The notes: a model not told the origin generated them from the sequence alone. Positions 2,606-18,927 are shown, numbered from the stretch's first letter. The stretch: 20,000 bases of DNA from an uncultured virus (IMG/VR IMGVR_UViG_3300025652_000046) (IMGVR_UViG_3300025652_000046); one strand, 5' to 3'. Numbers and translations are program-made.

Positions 2606-2650
2606 ATGGAGCCTCCCGTTATGTAGGTATATTTAAAATTAGTGTATAAG

Positions 2651-2690
2651 AAAACCACTAACAGTGTGTTGTATGTACCGTTAGTGATTC
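2651..2690 (-). terminator. probable intrinsic terminator
   Basis: Minus-strand RNA AUCACUAACGGU-loop-ACUGUUAGUGGU (with G:U pairs) followed by UUUUCUU, right after the stop of 2693..2905. Confidence 0.6.
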
Positions 2691-2692
2691 TA

Positions 2693-2905: not shown

Positions 2906-2907
2906 GT

Positions 2908-3593: not shown

Positions 3594-3594
3594 A

Positions 3595-3846
3595 TCATTT
3601 CTGCAAGATTTCAAGTGCAGCCTTTTCACTTAGCGCAGCTCGTCCATGGAATTCAATATTCGCTTTTGTACCTATGATAATCCACATTCTATCCTTTAGA
3701 CGGAATGCTTCAATTTTCCATAGGCCACTTTTAGATATAGCACCTACTTCTAATTGAGGAGTAGGTTTAGCTACCGGTTTAGCTGCGGCTGCCTTTGGGG
3801 CAACCTCTTTGCTAGTTGTTTTCTTAATACTAGGTTTGCTACTCAT
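3595..3846 (-). CDS. hypothetical protein with K/A/P-rich N-terminus
   Basis: ORF track 3595..3861; the more likely start is MSSKPSIKK at 3846, overlapping the end of the portal gene. Confidence 0.7.
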   Translation of the reverse strand: MSSKPSIKKTTSKEVAPKAAAAKPVAKPTPQLEVGAISKSGLWKIEAFRLKDRMWIIIGTKANIEFHGRAALSEKAALEILQK

Positions 3847-5491: not shown

Positions 5492-5527
5492 TTAGGCCTC
5501 CATTGATTTGGTTAAGTTTAAATTAGT

Positions 5528-5572
5528 TCCCCGTTTATAACTGTAAGTAGCGAATTTACAGTTAAAGGAGGG
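5528..5572 (-). other. stem-loop between HNH and portal genes
   Basis: TAACTGTAA-N9-TTACAGTTA inverted repeat, flanked by CCCC...GGGG. Confidence 0.5.
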
Positions 5573-5598
5573 GTTGCCTGGACGCCTTAAGCCACGTA

Positions 5599-6153
5599 TT
5601 ATAACGGTCTAAGGATCCTAAGTTGTTTCCAACCGAGAGTACCACGTCTTATACGTGCCTCAGCTGTTTTATGTTTTATACCGTGAGCGATAGCTGCTTC
5701 CCCTACATTACGGAATACACCTTTGTCGGTTTCTACCTCTATAGAAAGTTTTTCGCCTGCCTTTTTAGCACTGCTCATTTGGTGCGCCAGAAATTTTGCT
5801 TCATCTGTAAAGTAGGTGTCTCTGGCGTGTTGCATAGTGGAATCGAGGGTTCCTGCCTCTCGGCGGATAGCAGCTGTAGACTTACCTCCTCTAACAGCAA
5901 CTATTCTCGATGACTCTCGGTTATCTTCGTCTTGTAGCCAGTCCTGGTACCCTTTCTTCGCAGATTCAATTCTTGCTTCTTCAGGAAGGATTCTACCACT
6001 CAGCATTTGCCAAGCGACTTTATCTTGCCATCTGCCATAGGTATCAAATAGTTCCTTGTGCGCTTGCGCGTGTTCTTCTATAGTTAGTTGTACTAAGTTA
6101 TTAGGGTCGTCCGTGCCTCCCGCGTGTCGGGGGACTATGTGATGCCAATGCAT
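5599..6153 (-). CDS. free-standing HNH homing endonuclease with C-terminal NUMOD1/IENR1-like HTH
   Basis: HHIVPRHAGGTDDPNNLVQLTIEEHAQAH is an intact HNH motif; C-terminal GVFRNVGEAAIAHGIKHKTAEARIRRG. Confidence 0.88.
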   Translation of the reverse strand: MHWHHIVPRHAGGTDDPNNLVQLTIEEHAQAHKELFDTYGRWQDKVAWQMLSGRILPEEARIESAKKGYQDWLQDEDNRESSRIVAVRGGKSTAAIRREAGTLDSTMQHARDTYFTDEAKFLAHQMSSAKKAGEKLSIEVETDKGVFRNVGEAAIAHGIKHKTAEARIRRGTLGWKQLRILRPL

Positions 6154-6168
6154 GAGTATATCCTTAAA

Positions 6169-7521
6169 TTAAAAATTGTTTGATTGTTTGGATGTAACCT
6201 TCGTACCTGCTTGTACAGGGAAGAGGAATTCGGTCGAATATCGTACGCTGTCCGTCCAATGTTCTATACCTTCTGACTTATCTATTGTCAAAGTGTCTGG
6301 GTTGTTTTCTCTCCAAACGGTTCTTTCCATTGATTTTATCGTGTGCTTACAACGAGGATGAAAGTACATATTAATAGCACCATCACCTTTCAGTAGTAAT
6401 CTGTTAACCGCTTGTACAGAGTCTGCCATTCCTGGGGCTCTACTTCTTGCCAGTGTTTGTATACCGTAAGATTGTAGTATAGAGAAATCGGTACGGCCAA
6501 CAGCGGCACTGGATTTTCTGGCTCGACCACTTGGATCGGGATAAGCAAAAACCTTATGTCCTTTATCTATATACTTTTTCTTGATGTCTTTTGCGAGACA
6601 TTCGGTATCTGGGTGCCCTTGGAATTCGTTAAGGAAATGCATTTGTCCACCCCGTAAAGCGAATAAGCAAGATGCCATTATCGAGACGTTAAAATCTATA
6701 CCGATATGGGCATCTTCGCCTGGCTGTAATTCCTCAAGCTCTCTGTCTACGTGAGCAGACCTGTTAAAGTTATAGAACACAGTATTACCTGAGTCATCAA
6801 ATGACGCTTCATACTCTCGTTTAAATTGAAAGTGATCGATAGTATGTTTAGTACGTTCAATCTCTTTTACATCGAGGTATGGTGAATCTTTGTAAGTGTA
6901 GTGGTAAGACCTCCACTGAGAATCCCTTTCTTCAAAGTTAAACATCTCATAGAAGTAATCCTTGCCCATAGGTGTAGATATAACCAAAGCTCGTCCTGGT
7001 GACGGTGCGTTAAACTCCGCTGCTCTGTCTTCACTCCAACGGGTAGTAATACAAGGTTGTACTACTGATTCCCAGGATTCTTTGAAGGTAGAACCCGCAC
7101 CTTTAAATGATGTAACTTCATCCAGTACTACAAAGTATTGTCCGCTACCACGTAAACGCTGAGAGGCCTCGTAAGACCATAGCTTAAGAGTTACATTTCC
7201 AGGAAACCAAAAAGTACCTGAATGCTGACTCATTTTATCGCAGTAGTCCTCCATGCCCATTTGATAGGCTATTAGAGGGAAGTATATGTCTACACATTGC
7301 TGGTAGGTTGGCGCAATGATTGCTACATTCTTGTTTGGGATGTGCGCAGGCATTGACATTAATTCTTGTACGGCTAATATGGCAGCAGTGGCGGCAAGGT
7401 AAGACTTACCGAAACCACGTGAGGCACATACAACACTGTATCTGCAATTCTTTGCTACAAAGAGATCGTTGATGATCTCGGATTGTCCGGCATGTAACGT
7501 CAGACTCATAATCTTCTCCAA
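6169..7521 (-). CDS. terL: terminase large subunit (450 aa)
   Basis: Q motif LHAGQ, Walker A SRGFGKS, Walker B VVLDE, coupling motif ISTPMG, nuclease motifs IGIDFN, YPDPSG, HWTDSVRY. Confidence 0.95.
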   Translation of the reverse strand: MEKIMSLTLHAGQSEIINDLFVAKNCRYSVVCASRGFGKSYLAATAAILAVQELMSMPAHIPNKNVAIIAPTYQQCVDIYFPLIAYQMGMEDYCDKMSQHSGTFWFPGNVTLKLWSYEASQRLRGSGQYFVVLDEVTSFKGAGSTFKESWESVVQPCITTRWSEDRAAEFNAPSPGRALVISTPMGKDYFYEMFNFEERDSQWRSYHYTYKDSPYLDVKEIERTKHTIDHFQFKREYEASFDDSGNTVFYNFNRSAHVDRELEELQPGEDAHIGIDFNVSIMASCLFALRGGQMHFLNEFQGHPDTECLAKDIKKKYIDKGHKVFAYPDPSGRARKSSAAVGRTDFSILQSYGIQTLARSRAPGMADSVQAVNRLLLKGDGAINMYFHPRCKHTIKSMERTVWRENNPDTLTIDKSEGIEHWTDSVRYSTEFLFPVQAGTKVTSKQSNNF

Positions 7522-7536
7522 TCTCTGAGTATTATA

Positions 7537-8226
7537 TTATTTATGTAAATAGCTGCCCACTTTCTCCACAAAAGAGAAATCTGAAACAGCGGATAAGTTT
7601 ATTTTTTTATTACCTTCTCTACTTTCAAAAGTGTAACCAAAAGCTTCAAGGTCAGGTTTGTATCTGTCCTCAATTAGCTTCCTTGTTTTTGCTGTGTAGA
7701 ATTTTCGGTAGTCGGAAGTAGGTACACGTTGATGGCTTGCTTCAGTAATAGGATATGTCGAATCTAAGGGGATACCTAGTTCGCTAAGGATGCTTTCTGT
7801 GGATTCTTTTCGTGTTTCAAAGAAACCTATAAGATCTGTTTTTAGATTACATTCGGTATCCAGCATCCAACCTAGTTGTGGGTATCTCGAAAATGTTCTT
7901 AGGTAATCAGAGACGCCAGGTCTCCCAAAGTAGCTTTCAGGAAGAGGCATGTCAGCATAACGCCAATACACCCATTCTGTAAATGAGAGGTTGTGTGGTA
8001 CATCTCCTCTTTTGCCTGCATGGTATTTCCACTCACTGAATTCCCTTTCAAAAGGGTTTCTTACAAATAAAAATACAGTTTTACCAGCAGTAGGCATATC
8101 CATATCCAGAAAAGACCCGTGTTGAGAAGGTGCCTCAACGTCCAAGGTCCTACATAGGTAACCGGACATACTGGAGCTAGAGGTACGCGGTACCTGTACA
8201 AATATGAAATTTTCACCTACGATCAT
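7537..8226 (-). CDS. sulfotransferase family 2-like protein (229 aa)
   Basis: 5'-PSB-like FIFVQVPRTSSSSM, 3'-PB FVRNPFEREFSEWKY, DLIGFFE, and C-terminal YRKFYT...RYKPDLEAFGYTF. Confidence 0.8.
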   Translation of the reverse strand: MIVGENFIFVQVPRTSSSSMSGYLCRTLDVEAPSQHGSFLDMDMPTAGKTVFLFVRNPFEREFSEWKYHAGKRGDVPHNLSFTEWVYWRYADMPLPESYFGRPGVSDYLRTFSRYPQLGWMLDTECNLKTDLIGFFETRKESTESILSELGIPLDSTYPITEASHQRVPTSDYRKFYTAKTRKLIEDRYKPDLEAFGYTFESREGNKKINLSAVSDFSFVEKVGSYLHK

Positions 8227-8238
8227 TATTTTATCCTA

Positions 8239-8979
8239 TTATAAGTTTTCTTTATGGAACATACGTATCAAGTCACCACAAATGTCAGAACGCACAATGT
8301 CTTCCACATCGAATTCTATAGAGGGAACTTCAATATCGTTCCGATTACACATTTCTACGAATCGAGAGAGGTCACTACCTTTCTTAACGTCTGATTGCTT
8401 AGGGTCACCTATTAGTGCCATTACAGTACCTTCGCCTATACGGGTAGTGATCGCTTTGATCTCTTCGATAGAAAGGTTTTGTGATTCATCGATGATCACG
8501 AATGAATCTTCGAAGCTCATACCACGGATGGTCTCTATGGGTTGAATCATAATTTGAGTACCAAGCATCTTCTCATAGTTGCCTGCGCCTAATCCTTCTT
8601 TTAATACGTTGAGGATAGGGGCTAACCATGGGGCTAGTTTGTCATCAATGGTCCCGGGGAAGTGACCTAGTGAACGACCTGTGGGTACGTTTGGACGAGA
8701 TAACACAATTCTTTTTACTTTACCGTCAACAAGCATACGTGCAGCAATCATACCAGTGGTATAAGTTTTACCTGTGCCCGCTGGGCCAGTAGCTGTAACT
8801 AAGGGGTGTGTGTGGTAAAAGACACCTAAATCTTCTTGGTTGTCTGTAAGGGGTTCATAGAATTTACAAGGTGGAGTATATTCACGTTCGGGGTTAACCT
8901 TACGTTTGCTCTTACTCTTGCGAATCGGTGGAGCATAATCAGTATCGTTCTTGTTAGTGCTTCTTTTATTCTTTCTCAT
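8239..8979 (-). CDS. phoH: PhoH family ATPase
   Basis: GPAGTGKT Walker A, LSRP, LGHFPG, IRGMSF, IIDESQN, TRIGEG, GDPKQSD, DIVRS. Confidence 0.95.
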   Translation of the reverse strand: MRKNKRSTNKNDTDYAPPIRKSKSKRKVNPEREYTPPCKFYEPLTDNQEDLGVFYHTHPLVTATGPAGTGKTYTTGMIAARMLVDGKVKRIVLSRPNVPTGRSLGHFPGTIDDKLAPWLAPILNVLKEGLGAGNYEKMLGTQIMIQPIETIRGMSFEDSFVIIDESQNLSIEEIKAITTRIGEGTVMALIGDPKQSDVKKGSDLSRFVEMCNRNDIEVPSIEFDVEDIVRSDICGDLIRMFHKENL

Positions 8980-9011
8980 ATGGTGCCTTATATATAGTTT
9001 GGTTTAGTGAA

Positions 9012-9440
9012 TTATATTTTATTTCTAGCAACGCCTTTAAATTTCTCAAAGGTTCTGAGTCCGCCTAATCCGAGTAGTCCCATTAACACTGGCATCATTA
9101 TAGATAAGTCTGCTTGTGGAAATATGATTTCAGGGTGACCCGCTAGTTGAGCACTAAAAGTGCCTATTGGTGCGATTAGGAAGTTCATCGCGAATCCTAA
9201 GCCACACACCCATAATATGAATGGACGCGCACCTGCAACAAAGACACTATCTGATTTAGCAGCAGTGTTGTTGACTTCTATTTGAGCCAAGGCAAGTTGT
9301 TGTACATTGCTGGCTTCAAAGGTTTCTAATTTAAATTTTAATTCTGCTTTGGTAATTTTCTTATCGGTGTAGTCTTTAAACACGCCAGCTACGGTGTCTA
9401 ACACATCTCCAGATAAAAATTTAACTATTGTTGATAGCAT
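9012..9440 (-). CDS. holin, GTA_holin_3TM family
   Basis: EVN..AAKS.SVFVAGARPFILWVCG and LLGLGGLRTFEKFKGVAR are characteristic of this family. Confidence 0.85.
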   Translation of the reverse strand: MLSTIVKFLSGDVLDTVAGVFKDYTDKKITKAELKFKLETFEASNVQQLALAQIEVNNTAAKSDSVFVAGARPFILWVCGLGFAMNFLIAPIGTFSAQLAGHPEIIFPQADLSIMMPVLMGLLGLGGLRTFEKFKGVARNKI

Positions 9441-9509
9441 TAGATGTTCCTTTATGAATTAGTTTGGTTTGTTTTGTTTGATTTAATAAACACACCAACA
9501 TCTAGCATT

Positions 9510-9585
9510 AATGAGTCTCTTAATAGTCTCTTAAGAATACTTAGGATTAGTCTCCTAATAGTCTCCTAATAGTCTCTTAATGATC
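9510..9585. repeat. degenerate 11-bp tandem repeat TAATAGTCTC(T/C), ~5 copies
   Basis: ...gagtctcttaatagtctcttaag...ttagtctcctaatagtctcctaatagtctcttaat... Confidence 0.8.
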
Positions 9586-9635
9586 ATTAATGGTAATTAA
9601 TATATAACGAAGGGAGCAGGGGTTCATCCTTCCCT

Positions 9636-9650
9636 CTCTAGCGGGCACTA
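9636..9650 (-). promoter_or_regulatory. recurring motif TAGTGCCCGCTAGAG, putative phage promoter/operator upstream of the holin
   Basis: Shares WGTGCCC[T/G]CT with sites at 10327, 11083 and 11797. Confidence 0.45.
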
Positions 9651-9846
9651 CTTTTTATCCATAGGAATCATACATTTAAAATACCTGATTATGTGTGATT
9701 CTTTGTAAAAATGTCGAACGCGATTTTGTATAAAAGAATAGTAGCTACTCGGCTTCAAAGCGCTTCGCACTTCTCGCTTCGTGATAGTACCAGAGTGCTC
9801 CAGAGTGGCTCTCTCCCATACTTTAACAGATTTCTGATACCTTGGC

Positions 9847-10281
9847 TTAGCCTTTAGTACACTTACCTTTCTCTGTCTTACCTACGTGCTGTCCGTGAGT
9901 TCTTACTCGGTGGCAATTACTACACAACAAAAAACATCCTCTGATTACTTCTTTTATTCTCTTTAAACTCCAACCTGCTGACAGGACTGAGCTCTTTACT
10001 GCTTTACTTACAGAACTAGGGTCGTGCGGGATTAAATCAATGGCACACGCGTGAGCCCTGTATCCACAAGTACCACAACCTAAGATAGTCTTTACCCTAG
10101 CTATGAATTTTCTGTGTTTGTTTAATCTCTTCCACTCTGTGGTCTTCTCACGCCTGTTTTTCTTGTTTAGTTCAATCTGACAGATCTTACATGCTAGATT
10201 AAAACCATTCTTTCTTGCTTTGTTCTTGTAAAAGTCGTTGAGTGGTTTTTCAACCTTACAACGGTTACATGTTTGGCTCAT
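9847..10281 (-). CDS. Zn-ribbon + HNH-like protein (144 aa)
   Basis: Start moved to MSQTCNRC (ATG 10281, AAGGA RBS). CNRC..CKIC ribbon, then CGTCGY...AIDLIPH...LCSNCHR. Confidence 0.8.
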   Translation of the reverse strand: MSQTCNRCKVEKPLNDFYKNKARKNGFNLACKICQIELNKKNRREKTTEWKRLNKHRKFIARVKTILGCGTCGYRAHACAIDLIPHDPSSVSKAVKSSVLSAGWSLKRIKEVIRGCFLLCSNCHRVRTHGQHVGKTEKGKCTKG

Positions 10282-10326
10282 TAGAAGGTTTCCTTTGATA
10301 TATGTGTATTGGGTAGAGTCTTGTCT

Positions 10327-10341
10327 TAATAGAGGGCACAA
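10327..10341 (-). promoter_or_regulatory. recurring motif TTGTGCCCTCTATTA
   Basis: ~45 bp upstream of ATG 10281; near-identical to 11797-11811. Confidence 0.45.
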
Positions 10342-10372
10342 TATAAAACACTCCAAAAAGGGCCATTGGTGT

Positions 10373-10418
10373 TGGCGCGGAAACCATCGAGAATCCCTAA
10401 TGCTGGCGCGGAAACCAT
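10373..10418. repeat. 15-bp direct repeat TGGCGCGGAAACCAT x2, 31-bp period
   Basis: Exact copies at 10373-10387 and 10404-10418, intergenic. Confidence 0.85.
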
Positions 10419-10448
10419 TTCACTCGGGGTCCTTTGTGGTTAGGGGAT

Positions 10449-11015
10449 TTAGGTGATGTTGTTTGTGTGTGATTCTATCAAATAACAATTAGAGCATAAT
10501 ACCCTACACTGGGATAACTCTTTTTCAAGCCTAACCGCACCCCAGGAAGCCCTAATGGTATACTTGGCACTAGAGGATAAGTGTACGAACTCTAGGGCCA
10601 CAGGGTTCTCTTTGAATCCACAAGTACTACAACCACCGCATATTGTTTTGTATTTGTCTATAACAACCTTATTACGGGCTAATCTTTCCTGTTTCTTTGT
10701 ATCTTGTGTATATGTGGGTGCTGATTTACTGACACATCTACGACAAGTGGAATTTCTGCCAGTCTTGTTACCTTTGTTCTTGTGGAAGTAGTCAGCTTCT
10801 TTAGTTACTAGACAACTACTACATTCTATACTATATTCGACAGGAGGGTTAGGCATTCGTGCTGTGCGGGATTCCTTCTGGCAGTCTTTACAACTACTGT
10901 TACGTTTAGAAACTCTTGATGTGTTCTTAAAGAATTCTGTGTGTGGCTTCACGAGGGAGCATTGAGAGCATTCGTAAGAACGAAAGCGGCTGCTCTTTGT
11001 GTTATATATGGTCAT
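10449..11015 (-). CDS. double Zn-ribbon + HNH-like protein (188 aa)
   Basis: CSQC..CKDC and CSSC..CRRC ribbons, then CSTCGF...ALEFVH...LCSNCY; same architecture as 9847..10281. Confidence 0.8.
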   Translation of the reverse strand: MTIYNTKSSRFRSYECSQCSLVKPHTEFFKNTSRVSKRNSSCKDCQKESRTARMPNPPVEYSIECSSCLVTKEADYFHKNKGNKTGRNSTCRRCVSKSAPTYTQDTKKQERLARNKVVIDKYKTICGGCSTCGFKENPVALEFVHLSSSAKYTIRASWGAVRLEKELSQCRVLCSNCYLIESHTNNIT

Positions 11016-11082
11016 GTGTGGTTCCTATGAGCGATAGCGACCGCTCTTTTGTGGTTCATTAATGGTCATGTGTGGTTCTTTC

Positions 11083-11096
11083 TAGAGAGGGCACTA
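11083..11096 (-). promoter_or_regulatory. recurring motif TAGTGCCCTCTCTA
   Basis: ~70 bp upstream of ATG 11015. Confidence 0.45.
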
Positions 11097-11220
11097 TTGG
11101 GATCCTTTGGTTTTCCTCTTTGGTTCTGAATGGACTCTAAAATTTCCCTTATGAAAAAACCAATTAATTTCTAGACAAGAAGGGAGTAAGCATCAAGAAC
11201 CAAAAGGGCCCTATACCCCC

Positions 11221-11260
11221 CATGACCACCCATGACCACCCATGACCACCCATGACCACC
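11221..11260. repeat. tandem repeat (CATGACCACC)x4
   Basis: Four exact copies. Confidence 0.95.
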
Positions 11261-11539
11261 TATTATCATCAATGCCCACGAGTGTTCCACAGTGAATCAC
11301 AGAGAGACACTAATGACATTAAAGAGCGGTTGCTTCGCTCGTGGATGGCTATGGCATATGTGGTCATGTGTGGTCATATGTGGGTATGAGTGATGGTGTG
11401 TGGTTATATGTGTGGGTGTCGGTGAGCATGTGTGGTTTTAGTGGTTAAAGTGAATTATCCCTTATAGGAAGTTATTCAATTTGTGCACATCGATTAATGC
11501 TAAAGGCTGTAGTTAAGTAGTCAGTGATAATTCAAATAC

Positions 11540-11594
11540 ACACCACTAAGACACCACTAAGACACCACTAAGACACCATTAAGACCCCATTAAG
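11540..11594. repeat. tandem repeat (ACACCACTAAG)x3 plus 2 variants
   Basis: Three exact copies then ACACCATTAAG and ACCCCATTAAG. Confidence 0.95.
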
Positions 11595-11796
11595 CCCTCA
11601 CTAATGCTCCATCAATGCCCACCAATTACCTCTCCATTACAATAAGTGATAATTAAAATAAGCCCATTAAAGATCCTAAATGAAAACGTTTATCACTAAT
11701 ATCCCACGAGCGGTTGAGCTCGCTCTTATCTGTCTATCTATGTCTAGCTATGTCTATCTCTATACATTAAACCCCTTACTAATCATATAGATAAAA

Positions 11797-11811
11797 TAGT
11801 GCCCTCTATTA
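11797..11811 (+). promoter_or_regulatory. recurring motif TAGTGCCCTCTATTA, opposite orientation to the other copies
   Basis: Lies inside the arm that is inverted-homologous to 9585-9665. Confidence 0.4.
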
Positions 11812-11857
11812 GAAGAAGCTCCCCCTGCTCCCCGTGCTATATATTATTCATTAATGC

Positions 11858-11924
11858 CATTAATGCCCATATATGACATATTAATGCCCATATATGACAT
11901 TAATGCCCATATATGACATTAATG
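11858..11924. repeat. ~19-bp tandem repeat ATTAATGCCCATATATGAC x3
   Basis: Three copies, with a 2-bp insertion after the first. Confidence 0.9.
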
Positions 11925-11984
11925 ACCATACATAGACCATACATAGACCATACATAGACCATACATAGACCATACATAGACCAT
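11924..11984. repeat. tandem repeat (GACCATACATA)x5.5
   Basis: Five exact copies plus GACCAT. Confidence 0.95.
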
Positions 11985-12040
11985 GTCTAATACACTAATA
12001 GACTAACCTTAGAGGGTTAAACCTATACACACAACAAACT

Positions 12041-12130
12041 AAACATTAATAGACATTAATAGACATTAATAGACATTAATAGACATTAATAGACATTAAT
12101 AGACATTAATAGACATTAATAGACATTAAT
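12041..12130. repeat. tandem repeat (AGACATTAAT)x8 plus 1 variant
   Basis: Exact copies at 12051-12130, preceded by AAACATTAAT. Confidence 0.95.
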
Positions 12131-12307
12131 TAATCCCTAATGTTATTGTTTAGTTGTTTAGATTAATACAAAACAAACAACCCAATCTATCTATATATGT
12201 GTATTACATTACCTCTGTATGCCTTAATATGTTTAATGTCATTACTGGATCACTCTGGAGCACTCTTGATACATTAGTTATTGAGTGATAGAGACCCGTT
12301 ATTAACA

Positions 12308-12387
12308 TAAAAAAAATAAAAGAGTTTATGCCCCCAAGTTACCACCCACGACCAGTAAGGTCAAGGATGATAGCTTGGGGGCTTTTT
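12308..12387 (-). terminator. long hairpin/terminator ending the accessory-gene transcript (possibly bidirectional)
   Basis: GCCCCCAAG...CTTGGGGGC (12330-12382) with an extended G:U-containing stem on the minus strand; T-runs on both sides. Confidence 0.75.
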
Positions 12388-12395
12388 ACGTTAAT

Positions 12396-13514: not shown

Positions 13515-13718
13515 TTATAAAGATTCTGGTAAATGTCCCGCTAGAGATTCCATACCATTATACAAGTCTTCTATTGTCCAATCTTCAAATGCCTCTAGTA
13601 CGTGGCTCTCTATAAACTCATCGATACCCTCGTTATCCTCTCTTTCTAATAACTCCTCAGGTAGTCCTTCCGTGAGGAAGAAGCTACTTGCCCAAATTAT
13701 ACGTTCTATCTTATCCAT
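13515..13718 (-). CDS. very acidic small protein (67 aa)
   Basis: ORF with GAGGA RBS; strongly Glu/Asp-rich. Confidence 0.8.
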   Translation of the reverse strand: MDKIERIIWASSFFLTEGLPEELLEREDNEGIDEFIESHVLEAFEDWTIEDLYNGMESLAGHLPESL

Positions 13719-13752: not shown

Positions 13753-13977
13753 TCAATACTTTCTATCTGTAGCAGCATTCTCTCCATTGCCACAAACTAT
13801 CATATATTCATAATCTGCTAACATCTCGAAGTAGGGCCTCAAGTAGTCCTCTATGTACTCCAGACGGATATCATAAGAACCCGCGCTTATTCGGTAGTAG
13901 TTTTCTTTCGCTATATCAAGGACTACATCATGTACAACTGTATCTTCTACTGACATTAATCTTATTCTAAATTCCAT
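13753..13977 (-). CDS. LxPY paralog family member 10 (74 aa, C-terminally shortened)
   Basis: MEFR...VHDVVLDI...YIEDYLRPYFEMLADY. Confidence 0.85.
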   Translation of the reverse strand: MEFRIRLMSVEDTVVHDVVLDIAKENYYRISAGSYDIRLEYIEDYLRPYFEMLADYEYMIVCGNGENAATDRKY

Positions 13978-13996
13978 AAGTCACCCTGTTTAATTA

Positions 13997-14281
13997 CTAG
14001 TTAAGTGCGTAGCAACCACTCTTGAGAAAACCATACCTTCTAGCTGTAGCAGCATTCTCTCCACTGCCACAGATTACCATATAGTCATAATCTGCTACTA
14101 GATTGAAGTAGGGCTTTAAGTGAGTCTCAATATACTCTACACGGATATGTCCGTAGTAACTTGTTTTCTTATCCCCCTGTTTACGGTATGCTCCTACTCG
14201 GTAGTTTCCTTTCCCTATATCAAGGACTTCATTATGTACAGTTTTATCTTTTCCTGATATTAATGTTATTTTAAATTCCAT
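13997..14281 (-). CDS. LxPY paralog family member 9 (94 aa)
   Basis: MEFK...VHNEVLDI...YIETHLKPYFNLVADY. Confidence 0.85.
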   Translation of the reverse strand: MEFKITLISGKDKTVHNEVLDIGKGNYRVGAYRKQGDKKTSYYGHIRVEYIETHLKPYFNLVADYDYMVICGSGENAATARRYGFLKSGCYALN

Positions 14282-14304
14282 TAGCTACATAGCCTCTCTA
14301 GTGG

Positions 14305-14550
14305 TTAACGATCGAAATGTTGTGGGCGTAATGTAATGTTACTACCCCTACCTGTGACTGATAGGTAGCTGTACTCTGCCACCATTTCGAAATAGGGTTT
14401 TAGGTTTGACTCCATGTATGTATCCCCTATAGAGTAAAAATGTGATCCCTTACCTGGTGGTAACACTATTCGGGTATGCTCGTCAGGTATGTCCATGACT
14501 TCCTCATGTATAGTAGTACTACCTTCCATTAACTCTATTTTAAATTCCAT
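14305..14550 (-). CDS. LxPY paralog family member 8 (81 aa)
   Basis: MEFK...IHEEVMDI...YMESNLKPYFEMVAEY. Confidence 0.85.
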   Translation of the reverse strand: MEFKIELMEGSTTIHEEVMDIPDEHTRIVLPPGKGSHFYSIGDTYMESNLKPYFEMVAEYSYLSVTGRGSNITLRPQHFDR

Positions 14551-14810
14551 TAGTCATCCTTATAGTAGTTCATCCTAAGAAACCAAGGAGAGCCCTTGTT
14601 TGTTATCGATATCCTGTTATATTCAAACAACAAGTCGTAGTAGGGTCTTAAATAATCACGAATATAATCAGACTTAGGCGCAGGTCTTCGACACTCAAAA
14701 GTAGAGTGAGTGTTCCTATCAAGGTCTCTACAGTTAGCTTCAGCTATCTCTACAATATCTGTGTGTACCACAATTCCCTCATCCGATACTAATTCTACCC
14801 TGAATTCCAT
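14550..14810 (-). CDS. LxPY paralog family member 7 (86 aa)
   Basis: MEFR...VHTDIVEI...YIRDYLRPYYDLLFEY. Confidence 0.85.
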   Translation of the reverse strand: MEFRVELVSDEGIVVHTDIVEIAEANCRDLDRNTHSTFECRRPAPKSDYIRDYLRPYYDLLFEYNRISITNKGSPWFLRMNYYKDD

Positions 14811-14819
14811 TAGTTATCC

Positions 14820-15062
14820 TTAAGCATAGTAGTATTGTGAAAAGGCTAACGATCTTTCACATGGGACGATCTTTACAAAGTCGAAATCTGCCAACATTTC
14901 GAGATAGGGCATCAGACTCGACTCTACATACGAACCCTTTATCACGAAACACGGATCGGCATCTTTGCTCCCAGGATGGTGATGCACAGCGTCTTCGGGT
15001 ATAGTCATGTTTTCTTTGTGTACAACATTCCCGTTGTTTATCATCCTTATTTTAACATTCAT
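14820..15062 (-). CDS. LxPY paralog family member 6 (80 aa)
   Basis: MNVK...VHKENMTI...YVESSLMPYLEMLADF. Confidence 0.85.
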   Translation of the reverse strand: MNVKIRMINNGNVVHKENMTIPEDAVHHHPGSKDADPCFVIKGSYVESSLMPYLEMLADFDFVKIVPCERSLAFSQYYYA

Positions 15063-15420
15063 CTATACCGTGCCCCATCTCGTATACCGATAAGTCGATA
15101 CACATTATCCTATCTTCTTCAGCGTGTAGGTCCGCATCTTCTTTGCTATCATATATAGAGGTACAACCAATACTATCCACATTCAGCCAACCCTCATATG
15201 CAACAGGTGCCATAAAGAGGTCGTCACTATTACAAAATCCTCCCCCAAGGAAGTTACCTTCTTCATCCCATTGTTGTATATGACCTGCTACCACACCCAC
15301 TAAGAAGTCGTCAGCACACACATATAGGTCCTCAAAGTAACCAAGTTGAGTTACCGTCTCACCCTCGCGAGTTATTACTTTATCACCAGCTAAGGCTCTT
15401 TCTAAGTTAAATTTCTTCAT
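15052..15420 (-). CDS. conserved phage hypothetical protein (122 aa), not an LxPY paralog
   Basis: N-terminus MKKFNLERALAGDKVITREG resembles a recurrent phage hypothetical family; AAGGA RBS. Confidence 0.8.
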   Translation of the reverse strand: MKKFNLERALAGDKVITREGETVTQLGYFEDLYVCADDFLVGVVAGHIQQWDEEGNFLGGGFCNSDDLFMAPVAYEGWLNVDSIGCTSIYDSKEDADLHAEEDRIMCIDLSVYEMGHGIDEC

Positions 15421-15432
15421 TATGTATATTCC

Positions 15433-15681
15433 TTAAAAGTTATAATCGTTTTGTAGTATGAGTGATCGACTGTACGTCCACAGGGTTGTCCTCTCACTGA
15501 ATGGTACTGGCATCACTATACGAATAGTAGAATACGAGTATAACAAGTCAAGGTAAGGTATTAAGTGGTCTTCCATATAAGTCATGCTTATCATAGTCCC
15601 GTCAAACAACCCGCTATCCGGTATATCTATTAACTCCTCATACACACCTAACTGCCCCTCTACTATTACTTTAAATTCCAT
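15433..15681 (-). CDS. LxPY paralog family member 5 (82 aa)
   Basis: MEFK...VYEELIDI...YMEDHLIPYLDLLYSY. Confidence 0.85.
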   Translation of the reverse strand: MEFKVIVEGQLGVYEELIDIPDSGLFDGTMISMTYMEDHLIPYLDLLYSYSTIRIVMPVPFSERTTLWTYSRSLILQNDYNF

Positions 15682-15694
15682 TATGTATCCCTTA

Positions 15695-16093
15695 TTAGTT
15701 TACGAACACTTGTCTGTCATTAGTCATAAAGCAAGCAGACAGACCTTTTGGTAATCCCTGCTTTGTCTTAGTGAAAACAAACTCATTATATAAGTAGGGG
15801 TTATAGGTTATCTGTTTATATGAGGTAATAGAAGGCGTAATCACTTTTGGATTAGCACCTGTCTTAAAAGGTATGTGGTGTAGCAGTGTACCCTTTATAC
15901 CCGCGTGTACATTCTTAGACTTCTGTTCTAACACTCTCTGTCTGCCTCTCTCTGATACTGTAGGCTCTATACTACCACCTAACCTTACATAAGATGCGTG
16001 GTGTATTACTAAGCCTTTCTTAGGCCCATCCAGAGCCCTAACAGACCAACAGTGTTTATGTAGATTGTAGTATACAAATACTTTATCATTCAT
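15695..16093 (-). CDS. conserved phage hypothetical protein (132 aa), not an LxPY paralog
   Basis: VYYNLHK..WSV, GRQRVL...KNVHA and YNPY motifs of a recurrent phage family of unknown function. Confidence 0.8.
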   Translation of the reverse strand: MNDKVFVYYNLHKHCWSVRALDGPKKGLVIHHASYVRLGGSIEPTVSERGRQRVLEQKSKNVHAGIKGTLLHHIPFKTGANPKVITPSITSYKQITYNPYLYNEFVFTKTKQGLPKGLSACFMTNDRQVFVN

Positions 16094-16349
16094 GGTGTAA
16101 CCTCGTTAGCATTGCTTTATTACGGGTGTGGAAGCTACTGCTCCTTTTTCCGGTTTTTATTAGTATAAGACAATACTCATGTAACAAGTCAAAATAGGGC
16201 ATTAAGTGATTCTTTACATAATGAGAATTTACATATCGTCCACCGCAGATAAAGTTTTCAGCAGCTATCTTTACTTCTTCCGTGTGCACAGTAGTATAAA
16301 TACCTTTGTCAGCTACCTGTAGCTTTATTCTATACATATTATCATTCAT
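16086..16349 (-). CDS. LxPY paralog family member 4 (87 aa)
   Basis: YRIKLQV...VHTEEVKI...YVKNHLMPYFDLLHEY. Confidence 0.85.
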   Translation of the reverse strand: MNDNMYRIKLQVADKGIYTTVHTEEVKIAAENFICGGRYVNSHYVKNHLMPYFDLLHEYCLILIKTGKRSSSFHTRNKAMLTRLHHE

Positions 16350-16626
16350 TATAATTCCTATATAATATTGTTTGTCTCTTGTGCCTGTGGTAGAGAGGGC
16401 ATGACCCCTCCCGTACTACTATACAGATAAACGCATATTCGTGTAACATATCGAAGTAGGGGGCCAAGTGATGCTTTGCGTAGTGACCCTTGACCCAGCT
16501 GTTCCCACTGGTAGCGCGTACAAAGTGTCTATCAGCTATTTCTACTTCCTCAGTGTGTAGAGTATCGTATTCAGCCTTATCTATGTTATATACCTGTAGC
16601 ATTACTTTATATCTTTTACTATTCAC
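16342..16626 (-). CDS. LxPY paralog family member 3 (94 aa)
   Basis: YKVMLQV...LHTEEVEI...YAKHHLAPYFDMLHEY. Confidence 0.85.
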   Translation of the reverse strand: MNSKRYKVMLQVYNIDKAEYDTLHTEEVEIADRHFVRATSGNSWVKGHYAKHHLAPYFDMLHEYAFICIVVREGSCPLYHRHKRQTILYRNYNE

Positions 16627-16897
16627 GGTAAGTCCTCTCTAATAGTGTTTGTCTCTTGTGCCTGTGGTAAAGAGGATACCACCCACCCTGTACTTCTACA
16701 CAGATAAAATCATATTCGTGTAACATATCGAAGTAAGGGACCAGGTAGTTCTTTGCGTAGTAGCCTTTAACCAGGTTGTTCCCGCTACTATTGTGTATAA
16801 AGTATTTATCCTCTACGTCTAACTCTTCAGTGTGTAGAGTATTGTATTCAGCCTTCTCTATGTTGTATACCTGTAGCTTTACTTTATATTTCATCAA
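16619..16897 (-). CDS. LxPY paralog family member 2 (92 aa)
   Basis: YKVKLQV...LHTEELDV...YAKNYLVPYFDMLHEY. Confidence 0.85.
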   Translation of the reverse strand: MMKYKVKLQVYNIEKAEYNTLHTEELDVEDKYFIHNSSGNNLVKGYYAKNYLVPYFDMLHEYDFICVEVQGGWYPLYHRHKRQTLLERTYRE

Positions 16898-17195
16898 AAT
16901 AACCTATTGGTGTTACTGGTGGGGGAAATTGTTGCGTACTACTGATTATGCTTGCTCGCATATAAGTGTAAGTAGATTGACACTTGCCGACCCTTTTTAT
17001 ATTCATATATGCATAATCGTGTAACAAATCAAAGTAAGGGATTAGGTGATCTCTTACATAAGTGGCAGCAACCCTGGCGCGCATGCCCTTGACACTAAAC
17101 ACTGCGCAATCAGGCACCTCTACTGTTTCCGTATGTTCTACTGTCCCATACGTTCCCTTCACCCCTCCGTGTAATAATACTATGTATGCCGCCAT
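16884..17195 (-). CDS. LxPY paralog family member 1 (103 aa)
   Basis: YIVLL...EHTETVEV...YVRDHLIPYFDLLHDY; AAGGAGG RBS. Confidence 0.85.
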   Translation of the reverse strand: MAAYIVLLHGGVKGTYGTVEHTETVEVPDCAVFSVKGMRARVAATYVRDHLIPYFDLLHDYAYMNIKRVGKCQSTYTYMRASIISSTQQFPPPVTPIGYFDEI

Positions 17196-17209: not shown

Positions 17210-17329
17210 TTAGTAGCCGCCAGTTACTTCTATAGTTAAATCCAACGTATAAGCTTTAAACACTACCCCTCGTTTAACTAGCTCAAGTATCATCTCTGCC
17301 ATAGCAGCTATCGATTCACATTTAATCAT
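17210..17329 (-). CDS. small hypothetical protein (39 aa, ends in TGGY)
   Basis: Own translation MIKCESIAAMAEMILELVKRGVVFKAYTLDLTIEVTGGY; AGGAG RBS. Confidence 0.7.
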   Translation of the reverse strand: MIKCESIAAMAEMILELVKRGVVFKAYTLDLTIEVTGGY

Positions 17330-17338
17330 TATATTCTC

Positions 17339-17794
17339 CTAGAACCTTATTGTTGCACTTAACACAATAGCGTTACCATACAGTGTTACCCTTGGTTTTA
17401 TGTAAGGAGTGTCTAATTCAATACCTAACGAGAGTACTCCACATAAGGAGCCCATCGGTAGCATACACCCATCCCTATTCTCATAACCTGTTACAGCACC
17501 GACTGAAGCGATGACCTCGAAGTAATCGTACTTATAATAGTTTGATGCTGTTACCAAGTAAGACCTATCAAAGTAACTATTTTTGAATGTACTTACACCA
17601 AAACCATATTCAGCATTCCTATATTCAACACCAAATAAATTGTGTTTACTATTAAAACGTTTCCATTCCCCATCGAAATCCTCGAAGCCCTCATGGCCTA
17701 CGTGAGTCGATACTCCACCCACTACTGCTGTAAAGTAATTCTCGGCGTTAGCTGTGGTTGTCATTAGCAATAGTGCTATTAGTAAATATTTCAT
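17339..17794 (-). CDS. exported outer-membrane beta-barrel protein, PagP-like (151 aa)
   Basis: Signal peptide ending ANA, alternating beta-strands and C-terminal Phe. STH...FNSKHNLFGVEY and FKNSY resemble PagP WH...YNERPWGGGFG and FKDSW. Confidence 0.6.
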   Translation of the reverse strand: MKYLLIALLLMTTTANAENYFTAVVGGVSTHVGHEGFEDFDGEWKRFNSKHNLFGVEYRNAEYGFGVSTFKNSYFDRSYLVTASNYYKYDYFEVIASVGAVTGYENRDGCMLPMGSLCGVLSLGIELDTPYIKPRVTLYGNAIVLSATIRF

Positions 17795-18927
17795 TATGTT
17801 AATTCTCCTATTAAAACAATTTTAAATAAGTTACAAGCCCAGCCCAAAGGCTTATTGAGGTTACATATATTAGTTCCTGAATAATACAACTCTGGAATAA
17901 CACCATTGTTACTCCCAGCGATAGTTTTCATTTTGTTGAGATAGTGTTTTGGAGGCTGCATACCACATGCTGCATACGCAAGGATCAATGTTGGAAAGCC
18001 TAAGGTCCACTCCGCTTCATTACCATTAAGCTTACCCTCCGCCTGTGCATTAAATAGACCTCTATATGTGTAAAGAGTAACCCTCGAATTGATGTTGTAG
18101 TACTCATCATTCTCATATCTAATAACACCATTCTCTCTTACAAGCTTACTCTCGATGTTCTTTATTATTGCATTACCCTGTGTTCTTGACATTACCCTAC
18201 GAGGAACACCAAACCACACACCGTGGAGTTGAGCTAGATCTGCATTACGATGTTCTGTTTCGTTAGTACCGAACTCCCTTATAACCGTAATCGACTTATT
18301 TACTGCATGGTTAATCTGGGATGCTAACTCTGGATAATGCTTCTCGATGTCTACTAAACCAGATGCTGCACAGGCTATAGAAGATTGACGGATCTCATGG
18401 TTCTCTTCCCATGCACCACAATCACTTGTTTCCCAGAACCTTTGTGCTATTAGCGCTTCTACAAACAAGCCTACTATATGCCTATACTTATCGTTACCAA
18501 GTAATACGTCTGCTTCTTTTGATATAGCGATTAAGGCCATACCCCAAGCATCAAACTGTCTGTGGCCCCATTCCCTTTCACACTCATCGTTACCACTAAC
18601 TCCCCACCTGATATGGAACTCTTCGGCCTCATCAGGCATCTCAATTAGATAACTAAATTTACCATACTTCTTTTCACACAATACTAAGTAGTCTAAGAAT
18701 GTTTCCCAAGACTCTAGATACTGGTCTTTTTCAATATCTAATGTTTGCATATACAAATCGCGCAACCATACACACTCTACATAGTGTTCACCAGCCGATG
18801 CTGAGTATAAACCATTAGTACAACGTAGCGAGTTAGATGCATCTTGTATTTCTTTAACAGTATTATAAGACATGTTGTTCTCCATTGGCCATTGCATTTG
18901 TATCTCTTGAGCGATTTTAGTAGTCAT
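17794..18927 (-). CDS. glycoside hydrolase family 15-like (alpha/alpha)6 protein (377 aa)
   Basis: WLRD, QFD, DCGAWEE, GVIRYEND.YY, EAEW, IPELY and PLGW motifs in GH15 order. Confidence 0.8.
   Translation of the reverse strand: MTTKIAQEIQMQWPMENNMSYNTVKEIQDASNSLRCTNGLYSASAGEHYVECVWLRDLYMQTLDIEKDQYLESWETFLDYLVLCEKKYGKFSYLIEMPDEAEEFHIRWGVSGNDECEREWGHRQFDAWGMALIAISKEADVLLGNDKYRHIVGLFVEALIAQRFWETSDCGAWEENHEIRQSSIACAASGLVDIEKHYPELASQINHAVNKSITVIREFGTNETEHRNADLAQLHGVWFGVPRRVMSRTQGNAIIKNIESKLVRENGVIRYENDEYYNINSRVTLYTYRGLFNAQAEGKLNGNEAEWTLGFPTLILAYAACGMQPPKHYLNKMKTIAGSNNGVIPELYYSGTNICNLNKPLGWACNLFKIVLIGELT

What the first reader, a model, noticed from the sequence alone, without database searches (positions are those of the whole stretch)
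13753..17195. Array of ten divergent paralogous small genes with a fixed scaffold and a hypervariable loop
Seen: ten of twelve consecutive ORFs (74-103 aa) share an N-terminal strand (MEF[KR]h or Y[KR]h), then H-x5-[IV] (Y in one copy), then an invariant Y-x4-L-x-P-Y extended as [FYL]-[DEN]-[LM]-[LV]-x-[DES]-[YF] and a hydrophobic strand. The segment between the two motifs varies in length (14-27 aa by my count) and has little shared sequence; the C-tails also differ. All ten are open, and many are translationally coupled. I recognise no known domain. Inference: phages seldom keep ten paralogs, so this looks like a diversifying repertoire with a conserved fold and variable recognition surface, such as anti-defence or host-takeover binders covering several host targets or alleles. 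This is the best candidate for an undescribed system here.
Basis: partly seen in the sequence, partly recalled or inferred. Interest (0 to 1): 0.88.

Follow-up and report, generated by a model that had tools for sequence, protein, structure and literature searches.

The report
Ten-copy small-protein array in phage
An uncultured tailed phage carries ten old, diverged copies of one small protein of unknown fold and function in a row, at a spot where related phages carry different sets of copies, which makes it a good but untested candidate for a set of host-targeting or anti-immunity proteins.

Summary
Ten minus-strand ORFs (74-103 aa) between 13753 and 17195 are true paralogs. A profile built only from 13 homologs from other contigs picks exactly these ten of 100 window ORFs (E 1e-15 to 9e-11; next best 0.13).

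The family is tiny: 28 hits among 1.84 billion representatives, three of them spurious. No Pfam, PHROG, NCBIfam, PADLOC or PDB match reaches a curated cut-off or a significant score.

Two AlphaFold models (pLDDT 90 and 89) give one scaffold: a beta-hairpin, a variable insert, a kinked helix and two strands. Neither has a convincing structural neighbour (best Z 5.1).

The window is an uncultured siphovirus whose large terminase (TerL) is 65% identical to that of the Naomviridae phage DSS3_PM1. Close relatives carry different subsets of the copies at the same site. A more distant relative has an independent five-copy array there.

Each paralog has its own ortholog elsewhere, under purifying selection (dN/dS 0.28-0.59). 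The insert does not evolve faster than the hairpin or the tail, so "hypervariable loop" is overstated.

Function is unknown. My best guess (about 0.35) is a co-expressed repertoire of soluble binders or inhibitors of different host or competitor proteins. This is a new family of a known kind, the phage accessory paralog array.

The parts
16884..17195 (-). c10, family member, 103 aa, first gene of the array; AAGGAGG ribosome-binding site upstream
   Evidence: (E 9.2e-15 against the non-window profile)
16619..16897 (-). c9, family member, 92 aa (TTG start, or ATG one codon in); overlaps c10 by 14 nt
   Evidence: (E 2.3e-15); ortholog L003:92-376, 88% aa identity, dN/dS 0.29
16342..16626 (-). c8, family member, 94 aa (GTG start); the most recent duplicate of c9 (65% aa identity; 277-nt DNA repeat at 78%)
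   Evidence: AlphaFold model pLDDT 90.4; orthologs in L005 and L004
16086..16349 (-). c7, family member, 87 aa
   Evidence: E 1.1e-15; ortholog L003:369-632, dN/dS 0.50
15695..16093 (-). i132, an unrelated basic 132-aa protein inside the array (Pfam PF25735 Phage_L5_gp82, phrog_586); 96-97% identical in L003 and L005
15433..15681 (-). c6, family member, 82 aa (Y in place of the conserved H)
   Evidence: E 7.1e-11; ortholog L005:6997-7245, dN/dS 0.50
15052..15420 (-). i122, an unrelated and very acidic 122-aa protein inside the array (charge -19, 5 Cys); no family match
   Evidence: ortholog in L005 at 87% identity
14820..15062 (-). c5, family member, 80 aa
   Evidence: E 1.4e-14; groups with P0017 at 100/99 support
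14550..14810 (-). c4, family member, 86 aa, 26-residue insert
   Evidence: ortholog L005:7641-7901, dN/dS 0.44
14305..14550 (-). c3, family member, 81 aa; its start overlaps the c4 stop by 1 nt
   Evidence: (E 4.3e-12)
13997..14281 (-). c2, family member, 94 aa, longest insert (27 residues), modelled as an extra beta-hairpin
   Evidence: AlphaFold model pLDDT 89.2
13753..13977 (-). c1, family member, 74 aa, last gene of the array; a recent duplicate of c2 (DNA blocks 81-85% identical either side of the insert)
17212..17328 (-). 38-codon ORF with its own ribosome-binding site, lying between the PagP-like gene and c10; not a family member by eye, not tested further
   Evidence: read from the sequence
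11016..12395 (.). non-coding region rich in 10-11-nt tandem repeats that ends the transcription unit holding the array and separates it from the HNH-holin-PhoH-TerL module

Best explanation
The region is one tightly packed operon of an uncultured siphovirus. It encodes ten old, diverged paralogs of a phage-lineage-specific, soluble protein of 74-103 aa.

Each copy has the same predicted alpha/beta scaffold: a long N-terminal beta-hairpin, an insert of 14-27 residues (a second small hairpin in some copies), a Pro-kinked amphipathic helix carrying Y-x4-L-x-P-Y-[FL]-[DE]-[LM]-[LV], and two C-terminal strands. The invariant residues are mostly the helix face that should pack on the sheet. The differences lie on the hairpin, in the insert and in the tail.

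The array sits at a hotspot of gene turnover, between conserved small genes and a non-coding repeat region upstream of the holin-PhoH-terminase module. Near-identical phages carry different subsets there, and a sister lineage has expanded its own five copies.

I infer that the copies are made together and that each binds and blocks a different host or competitor protein. That would make the array a poly-specific counter-defence, or immunity-like, repertoire.

Shown here: paralogy, the shared predicted fold, operon packing, purifying selection on every tested copy, and presence/absence turnover. Inferred only: that they bind proteins, that the targets differ, and that the targets are defence or takeover-relevant.
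For: - Homology: an independent profile hits 10 of 100 window ORFs, exactly the ten.
- Shared fold: c8 has pLDDT 90.4 and pTM 0.80; c2 has pLDDT 89.2 and pTM 0.75 with the same order of elements plus an extra hairpin in the insert.
- Soluble: no 19-residue window reaches Kyte-Doolittle 1.6 in any of 45 family sequences (maximum 1.45).
- Charges differ: pI runs from 4.1 to 9.2 among the ten, as expected if partners differ.
- Operon: gaps are -14 to +23 nt and 6 of 11 junctions overlap.
- Retention: in the ML tree, c4, c5, c6 and c7 each group with an ortholog from another contig at support 99/93 or better, and c9 does so at 87/100. c1 and c2 together share one L005 ortholog (100/93). c8 lies unresolved in an 84/90 clade beside the L005, L004 and P0005 copies, so its orthology rests on identity (about 80% aa to its L005 and L004 copies). 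c3 and c10 have no ortholog among the sequences found.
- Purifying selection: ortholog dN/dS is 0.28-0.59 in 8 comparisons.
- Turnover among phages whose embedded i132 gene is 96-97% identical: the window has c10-c9-c8-c7-i132-c6-i122-c5-c4-c3-c2-c1; L005 has c8'-i132-c6'-i122-c4'-c1/2' and is then cut by the contig end; L003 has c9'-c7'-i132-i122.
- Independent expansion: L006 (TerL pieces 79-85% identical) has 5 copies at the syntenic place, all inside one clade of 18 rows with support 98/94.
- Hint of adaptive change: c1 and c2 differ in their first 26 codons by 12 nonsynonymous and 0 synonymous changes (one-sided Fisher p = 0.05, one of many comparisons).
- Precedent: phage accessory genes that neutralise defences do occur next to paralogs and are amplified under selection. 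T4 nrdC.5 overcomes Dsr1, and tifA amplifications overcome ToxIN (passages of PMC9391042). A homing endonuclease drives such amplification (abstract of PMC13096335).
Against: - No member resembles any known anti-defence, antitoxin or immunity protein by sequence. By structure the resemblance is not convincing: AcrIF9 Z 3.2 and T4 Dmd Z 2.8-3.1, both inside the noise.
- No region shows dN/dS above 1 between orthologs, and the insert is not faster than the hairpin or tail.
- Expression timing is unknown. Every gene in the window is on one strand, promoter-like sites are not enriched (26 found against 32 expected), and in L005 the array follows an endolysin gene rather than lying in a recognisable early region.
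- Several conserved residues are polar (H and E on strand 2; D/E, H and D/E on the helix). That could mean a shared ligand, metal or partner rather than ten different ones.
- The host is unknown, so no target can be named.
Confidence: 0.35

Rival explanations
1. The paralogs are subunits of one hetero-oligomeric assembly, or partners that work together. Equal co-expression from a translationally coupled operon would supply the parts of one complex rather than ten independent binders.
For: Tight packing and six overlapping junctions favour stoichiometric co-production. The most conserved stretch includes polar and aromatic residues that could form a common interface.
Against: Close relatives carry different subsets. 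L005 lacks c10, c9, c7, c5 and c3. L003 lacks c8 and c6. An obligate multi-subunit complex would hardly tolerate that. L006 manages with five copies of separate origin.
Confidence: 0.1
2. They are small regulators of phage or host gene expression (nucleic-acid or RNA-polymerase binders), duplicated to tune different promoters or stages.
For: Small size, cytoplasmic nature and a position just upstream of a repeat-rich non-coding region and the late module. Four copies are basic, with pI 8.6-9.2.
Against: No helix-turn-helix, ribbon-helix-helix or zinc motif, and no match to any DNA- or RNA-binding family in Pfam, PDB sequences or fold searches. Four copies are clearly acidic (pI 4.1-5.1) and two more are mildly acidic to neutral (5.7-6.9). 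Regulators are seldom gained and lost between near-identical phages.
Confidence: 0.12
3. They act in phage-phage or mobile-element conflict, for example as immunity-like inhibitors of nucleases from competing phages or of the many homing endonucleases in this lineage, or in superinfection exclusion.
For: Tandem arrays of diverged small proteins are the hallmark of polyimmunity loci (recalled from the polymorphic-toxin literature; PMC3482391 was seen only in the listing). This lineage is full of HNH and endonuclease VII genes: three in the window, and four in L006, one of them splitting TerL.
Against: No toxin or nuclease gene lies next to or is paired with any copy. Copy number (10) does not track the number of endonucleases. 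Homing endonucleases are not known to need immunity proteins (general knowledge).
Confidence: 0.1
4. The copies share one small-molecule or metal-dependent activity, with a conserved active or binding site, and the duplication serves dosage or substrate range.
For: Nearly invariant H and E on strand 2, and D/E-x-x-H-[DE] on the helix, in c6-c10 and the L006 lineage. The best structural neighbour is a papain-like NlpC/P60 effector, TseH (Z 5.1, rmsd 3.2, 74 residues aligned).
Against: No conserved Cys, so no papain-type dyad. The helix His is A or F in c1-c5, the strand His is Y in c6, and the strand E is V or D in c1 and c4. A Z of 5.1 is below the tool's own noise guide of 7-8. A protein of 74-103 aa is small for an enzyme.
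Confidence: 0.08
5. The array is a by-product of repeated duplication with no present function: selfish or neutral filler genes.
For: No known function. Content varies among relatives.
Against: All ten frames are open. Seven of the ten copies (c4-c9 singly, c1 and c2 through a shared ortholog) have an intact ortholog in other contigs; c3 and c10 have none among the sequences found. dN/dS of 0.28-0.59 shows constraint. The helix and strand 3 are strongly conserved (dN/dS 0.21). Confident folds are predicted. Phage genomes are size-limited by the capsid (general knowledge).
Confidence: 0.05

Closest known systems
Diverged anti-defence paralog arrays in phage accessory regions, e.g. T4 nrdC.3-nrdC.6, where nrdC.5 counteracts Dsr1
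   Same: Neighbouring, strongly diverged copies of one phage-only protein in a non-essential, variable region. In T4, one member is shown to overcome a host defence (passages of PMC9391042). The paralogy of nrdC.3-.6 comes only from earlier AI notes and was not tested here.
   Different: Unrelated proteins: about 300 aa with coiled-coil tails there, 74-103 aa alpha/beta here. There are ten copies instead of four. No member here has any shown activity, and no Pfam family matches.
Segmental amplification ('genomic accordion') of counter-defence genes in phages (T4 tifA; SegB-driven amplification in T6)
   Same: Tandem multiplication of an accessory gene in a phage, with copy number differing between close relatives. 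Homing endonuclease genes lie nearby (abstracts of PMC9391042 and PMC13096335).
   Different: Those amplifications are recent, near-identical repeats selected for dosage. Here the copies are 22-65% identical in protein, the closest DNA repeat is 78-85% identical, and most copies (c4-c9; c1 and c2 jointly) have their own ortholog in other phages. The expansion is old and the copies have diverged in sequence, so they have presumably diverged in specificity too.
Polyimmunity loci of bacterial polymorphic toxin systems
   Same: Runs of small, diverged, soluble paralogs with a common fold and variable surfaces, with gain and loss between strains (recalled from the literature; not read here).
   Different: No toxin gene or toxin cassette is linked. 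The array is in a lytic-type phage genome, not next to a secretion system, and it matches no known immunity family.
Multigene families of large eukaryotic DNA viruses
   Same: Tandem, diverged paralogs at a variable genome region, thought to widen host range or counter immunity (recalled from general knowledge; not checked here).
   Different: A different virus realm, different hosts and much larger genomes, and unrelated proteins. It is an analogy only.

Membership tests
Any curated protein family (Pfam-A, PHROGs, NCBIfam, PADLOC) | Profile match at or above the curated cut-off | tested here: not met
   Pfam: 0 of 10 window copies and 0 of 36 family members reach a cut-off. The best is ComA at 18 bits against a cut-off of 25.2, in 4 members. 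PHROGs: only two weak hits (E 0.0037 and 0.001), both to families of unknown function. NCBIfam: none reaches a cut-off. PADLOC: 2 of 36 members hit, at E 0.028 and 0.034.
NlpC/P60 / papain-like fold (best structural neighbour, T6SS effector TseH, 6v98) | Conserved catalytic Cys at the N-terminus of a helix, with a His on a strand | tested here: not met
   No conserved Cys anywhere in the 33- and 36-sequence alignments; the invariant or nearly invariant columns are H, E, Y, P, Y, L, Y.
NlpC/P60 / papain-like fold | Significant overall fold similarity | tested here: inconclusive
   Z 5.1, rmsd 3.2, 74 of 183 residues aligned for the c2 model. Z 3.2 for the c8 model. Both are under the tool's noise guide of 7-8.
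Beta-grasp fold (e.g. the C-terminal domain of staphylococcal SSL7) | A beta(2)-alpha-beta(2) mixed sheet gripping one helix, with significant structural similarity | tested here: inconclusive
   The order of secondary-structure elements is compatible. SSL7, SSL10 and SSL11 score only Z 3.1-3.7 at rmsd 3.5-4.3. Foldseek PDB has no hit at E <= 0.001.
Known small phage inhibitors (T4 Dmd antitoxin, AcrIF9) | Structural or sequence similarity to the solved inhibitor | tested here: inconclusive
   Dmd (5hy3_B) Z 2.8 and 3.1; AcrIF9 (7chr_A) Z 3.2. The profile found no match among PDB sequences at E <= 10.
Segmental amplification (genomic accordion) | Near-identical tandem repeat units that include flanking DNA | tested here: not met
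   The closest units are 78% (c8/c9, 277 nt) and 81-85% (c1/c2) identical. All other copies are recognisable only at protein level.
Polyimmunity locus of a polymorphic toxin system | A linked toxin gene or toxin cassettes with a secretion or trafficking domain | tested here: not met
   The neighbours are PagP-like, GH15-like, L5-gp82-like, acidic small proteins, HNH endonucleases, holin and PhoH. No toxin domain was found.
Polyimmunity locus of a polymorphic toxin system | A tandem array of diverged small paralogs with strain-to-strain gain and loss | tested here: met
   Ten copies here, at least 4 in L005, 5 in L006, and different subsets in L003, L004 and L005.
Diverged anti-defence paralog array (T4 nrdC.3-.6 type) | At least one member with demonstrated counter-defence activity | not testable with these tools
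   This needs expression against defence systems.

The most novel reading that the evidence does not exclude
A previously unseen small alpha/beta fold serves a group of uncultured phages as a modular binder scaffold. The scaffold-coding ends of neighbouring copies are kept alike by recombination, while older and distinct inserts are retained: synonymous divergence is 0-0.2 in the c1/c2 and c8/c9 hairpins against about 0.58 in their inserts. Whole copies are shuffled in and out between phages. Together this would give a poly-specific counter-defence repertoire of up to ten members that sets which hosts the phage can infect.
Probability: 0.25. Interest if true: 0.8.

Novelty: new member of a known kind. 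Interest (0 to 1): 0.55.

Why it matters
Ten retained, diverged paralogs are unusual for a phage genome of about 80 kb, where space is limited. So the family very likely pays for itself.

If the copies are inhibitors of different host defences or takeover targets, the array would be a compact natural library of binders on one small scaffold that does not match any solved or predicted viral structure searched here. The differences in array content between near-identical phages would then be a readable record of host-range adaptation in uncultured phages.

The immediate value is limited. Neither the host nor any target is known, and the family is confined to a narrow phage lineage.

Tried and rejected
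- IMG/VR scans with two family alignments found no relative: 34 and 73 pattern matches, none confirmed. A 33-sequence alignment was too variable for the tool.
- The nearest held virus record, G001, is identical to window 1-11035 only and stops before the array. The window's own assembly is not held.
- Megablast of the region and tblastn of P0021 against 50,697 GenBank phage records gave no match. The family profile found nothing in DSS3_PM1.
- The genome-contig scan gave 2 candidates out of 19 pattern matches, both in Burkholderiales MAGs. The L009 candidate is a shadow ORF opposite an AbrB/VapB-like gene beside a PIN-like gene. L010 carries the same segment. I rejected both as chance motif matches.
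- Three long hits of the representative search (P0026, P0034, P0036) are repeat proteins that match a short motif several times. I rejected them as fused forms. I did not run the 'longer' or 'shorter' length modes of the search for homologous proteins, but the representative search had no length limit.
- The ESM Atlas gave no usable hit for c8, and only hits at 0.78 or below to unnamed clusters for P0021.
- Earlier scan findings: nothing for this place or sequence.
- Foldseek PDB and BFVD gave nothing at E <= 0.001. The best BFVD row is an uncharacterised crAss-type protein (E 0.039, TMq 0.55).
- No tRNA and no Rfam family were found in the window.
Oligomeric state and expression therefore stay open.
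- The first regional dN/dS run used a wrong hairpin boundary for c8 and c9. One search replaces it.
- Two literature leads had no bearing on this family: the Endozoicomonas phage preprint and the vibrio phage plasticity paper (passages only). A search for PF25735 found no paper.

Full report
**What is there.** Every gene in the window lies on the minus strand. The window belongs to a tailed phage. It encodes a Mu-F-like head morphogenesis protein, a portal protein, a large terminase (TerL), a sulfotransferase, PhoH, a three-TM holin and several HNH endonucleases. The TerL is 65% identical to that of roseophage DSS3_PM1 (Naomviridae, Noahvirus) and 52% to EBPR siphovirus 1. The window's own assembly is not held. 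One IMG/VR fragment (G001) is identical to window 1-11035 and stops before the array. The protein database lists a 79,516-base contig for three of the window's proteins.

**The ten ORFs.** Between 13753 and 17195 lie twelve consecutive ORFs. Ten of them (74-103 aa, here called c1 to c10 by coordinate) align over their whole length. They share an invariant Y-x4-L-x-P-Y, a nearly invariant His and a second nearly invariant Tyr. The other two, i122 (15052-15420) and i132 (15695-16093), are unrelated. i132 belongs to PF25735 (Phage_L5_gp82) and phrog_586.

**Is it more than chance?** Yes.
- A profile built only from 13 homologs found on other contigs hits 10 of the 100 window ORFs of 40 aa or more. 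These are exactly the ten, at E 1.1e-15 to 8.6e-11. The next ORF scores E 0.13, and i122, i132 and the downstream small ORFs score E above 2.
- In BLASTP, 44 of 45 pairs of copies match at E <= 5e-4. Identities run from 22% to 65%.
- Neighbouring genes are spaced by -14 to +23 nt, and 6 of 11 junctions overlap. Together with recognisable Shine-Dalgarno-like purine runs upstream of most copies, this reads as one operon.
- No copy has a hydrophobic stretch long enough for a membrane span.
- pI ranges from 4.1 to 9.2.

**How rare is the family?**
- A profile search of 1.84 billion representative proteins gave 28 hits at E <= 1e-3 and 9 at E <= 1e-10. Three of the 28 are long repeat proteins that match a short motif several times, and I discount them. 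The rest are 69-117 aa.
- The word-indexed search of 5.8 billion clusters gave 15 hits.
- Nothing was found in IMG/VR, in GenBank phages or in DSS3_PM1.
- The scan of bacterial and archaeal genomes gave only two candidates, which are shadow ORFs opposite a VapB-like gene.
- No Pfam, PHROG, NCBIfam or PADLOC family, and no PDB sequence, matches at a meaningful level.

**Fold.**
- AlphaFold2 with the family alignment gives c8 a pLDDT of 90.4 and pTM of 0.80. Its elements are strands 3-14 and 19-31, helix 47-61, strands 66-72 and 78-83, and a short helix 84-89.
- c2 has the longest insert. Its model has pLDDT 89.2 and pTM 0.75, with the same order of elements plus an extra hairpin (27-32, 41-46) formed by the insert.
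- The conserved motif is therefore a Pro-kinked helix whose hydrophobic face (Y, L, Y/F, L, Y) should pack on the sheet. I infer this from the residue spacing, because I could not inspect coordinates.
- Foldseek found nothing at E <= 0.001 in the PDB or BFVD.
- The exhaustive VIA-align search of 48,161 chains gave a best Z of 4.0 for c8. For c2 the best was 5.1 (TseH, a papain-like effector; rmsd 3.2, 74 residues aligned). Both are below the tool's noise guide of 7-8.
- The family has no conserved Cys, so it is not a papain-type enzyme. I cannot say the fold is new, only that nothing known was recognised.

**Relatives and context.** One metagenome scan returned five loci. A family HMM finds 4 copies in L005 (which is cut by the contig end), 5 in L006, 2 each in L003 and L007, and 1 in L004.

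L005, L004 and L003 are close relatives of the window; their i132 is 96-97% identical. Their gene orders differ:
- Window: three small conserved ORFs, then u71, GH15-like, PagP-like, a 38-codon ORF, c10, c9, c8, c7, i132, c6, i122, c5, c4, c3, c2, c1.
- L005: endolysin, the same three small ORFs, a 59-aa ORF, then c8', i132, c6', i122, c4', c1/2'. It lacks the GH15-like and PagP-like genes and c10, c9, c7, c5 and c3.
- L003: c9', c7', i132, i122. It lacks c8 and c6.

L006 is more distant: TerL pieces are 79-85% identical, holin 77% and PhoH 72%. It is syntenic on both sides and carries five copies at the same place, after the homolog of one of the small conserved ORFs and before the HNH-holin-PhoH-TerL block.

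**Family tree.** I built an ML tree of 45 family proteins.
- c4, c5, c6 and c7 each group with their own ortholog from another contig at support of 99/93 or better.
- c9 does so at 87/100.
- c1 and c2 together share one L005 ortholog (100/93).
- c8 lies in an 84/90 clade beside the L005, L004 and P0005 copies without a resolved sister, so its orthology rests on about 80% amino-acid identity to the L005 and L004 copies.
- c3 and c10 have no ortholog among the sequences found.
- All L006-lineage sequences (18 rows) form one clade at 98/94, which points to a separate expansion.
- The tree is rooted at the midpoint for drawing only, and long branches are flagged.

**Selection.**
- Nei-Gojobori dN/dS between window copies and their orthologs is 0.28-0.59 in 8 comparisons. 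The embedded genes give 0.18 (i132) and 0.64 (i122).
- Pooled over five ortholog pairs, dN/dS is 0.52 in the hairpin, 0.55 in the insert, 0.21 in the helix plus strand 3, and 0.42 in the tail.
- The helix block is significantly more conserved than the rest (Fisher p = 0.0017). The insert is not faster than the rest (p = 0.44).
- So each copy is under moderate purifying selection. The differences in insert length and sequence among paralogs are old.

Two weaker signals are worth noting.
- The youngest pairs look mosaic. Synonymous divergence is 0 (c1/c2) and 0.20 (c8/c9) in the hairpin, against about 0.58 in the insert. This fits either gene conversion of the scaffold-coding ends or older inserts.
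- c1 and c2 differ in their first 26 codons by 12 nonsynonymous and no synonymous changes (one-sided Fisher p = 0.05, uncorrected for the many comparisons made).

**What it most likely is.**
- Shown: a real, selected, co-transcribed family of soluble small proteins with one predicted scaffold, sitting at a positionally conserved hotspot where copies are gained and lost between near-identical phages and where a sister lineage expanded its own set.
- Inferred: the copies are stoichiometric binders with different partners, most plausibly host defence or takeover targets, or competitor nucleases. I put this at about 0.35.
- The analogy is with phage accessory genes such as T4 nrdC.5 (anti-Dsr1) and tifA (anti-ToxN), which lie in variable regions and are amplified under selection (passages of PMC9391042; abstract of PMC13096335).
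- It differs from those amplifications in being old and diverged. The closest DNA repeat is 78-85% identical.
- Against the reading: there is no similarity to any known inhibitor, no positive selection overall and no evidence on timing. In L005 the array follows an endolysin gene. The conserved polar residues could mean one shared ligand or partner.
- The rivals are a hetero-oligomer, regulators, inter-phage immunity, a small enzyme or ligand binder, and neutral filler. They are listed with their tests in the Rival explanations section.

**Limits.**
- I could not view model coordinates, so statements about exposed and buried faces are inferences from sequence periodicity.
- The dN/dS estimates rest on short genes and single ortholog pairs.
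- The statement that Naomviridae have deoxyuridine-substituted DNA is my recollection and was not checked here.

Noticed in passing
window 11016-12395: A 1.4-kb stretch without any ORF of 60 aa or more. It is filled with tandem repeats of 10-11 nt period: TAGACATTAA about 9 times at 12040-12130, GACCATACATA about 6 times at 11924-11990, ACCACCCATG about 5 times at 11215-11265, and TAAGACACCAC about 4 times at 11536-11590. Inverted copies are also present. The IMG/VR fragment G001 ends at 11035. This is a candidate origin, packaging site or genome-end region.
   Followed up: partly
window 17339-18927: A PagP-like outer-membrane protein with a signal peptide (phrog_3600, E 5e-19) and a GH15-like glycoside hydrolase (Pfam E 1e-5) lie just upstream of the array. 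L005 lacks both at the same site, as it lacks c10 and c9. This is an insertion/deletion of moron-type genes, and it implies a Gram-negative host.
   Followed up: partly
L006 16207-18685: In the more distant relative, the large terminase gene is in two pieces (253 aa and 169 aa; 85% and 79% identical to the window's TerL). An endonuclease VII/HNH gene separates them, and another follows. The window's TerL is intact, with an HNH gene downstream.
   Followed up: no
window 15052-15420 and 13515-13718: Two very acidic small proteins: i122 (net charge about -19, 5 Cys) inside the array, and a 67-aa protein (about -16) just after it. Neither has a family match. Their charge recalls DNA-mimic proteins, but I tested nothing.
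   Followed up: no
window 17212-17328 (-): A 38-codon ORF with its own AGGAG-type ribosome-binding site. Its stop sits in the Shine-Dalgarno sequence of c10. It is too short for the ORF listings.
   Followed up: no
window 13753-14281 (c1, c2): The two youngest paralogs differ by 12 nonsynonymous and 0 synonymous changes in codons 2-27. They also differ by an indel of about 9-12 codons in the insert. The L005 ortholog has an intermediate insert.
   Followed up: partly
L009 4761-5102 and L010 2102-2347: The family motif PYFDLLHDY occurs by chance in a shadow frame, opposite an AbrB/VapB-like antitoxin gene beside a PIN-like gene, in two Burkholderiales MAGs. This warns against relying on motif-only matches for this family.
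   Followed up: yes
window 9847-11015 and 5599-6153: The window has three HNH/endonuclease VII-type genes, and L006 has four (two syntenic with the window's pair, two in and after TerL). This phage lineage is unusually rich in homing-type endonucleases.
   Followed up: no
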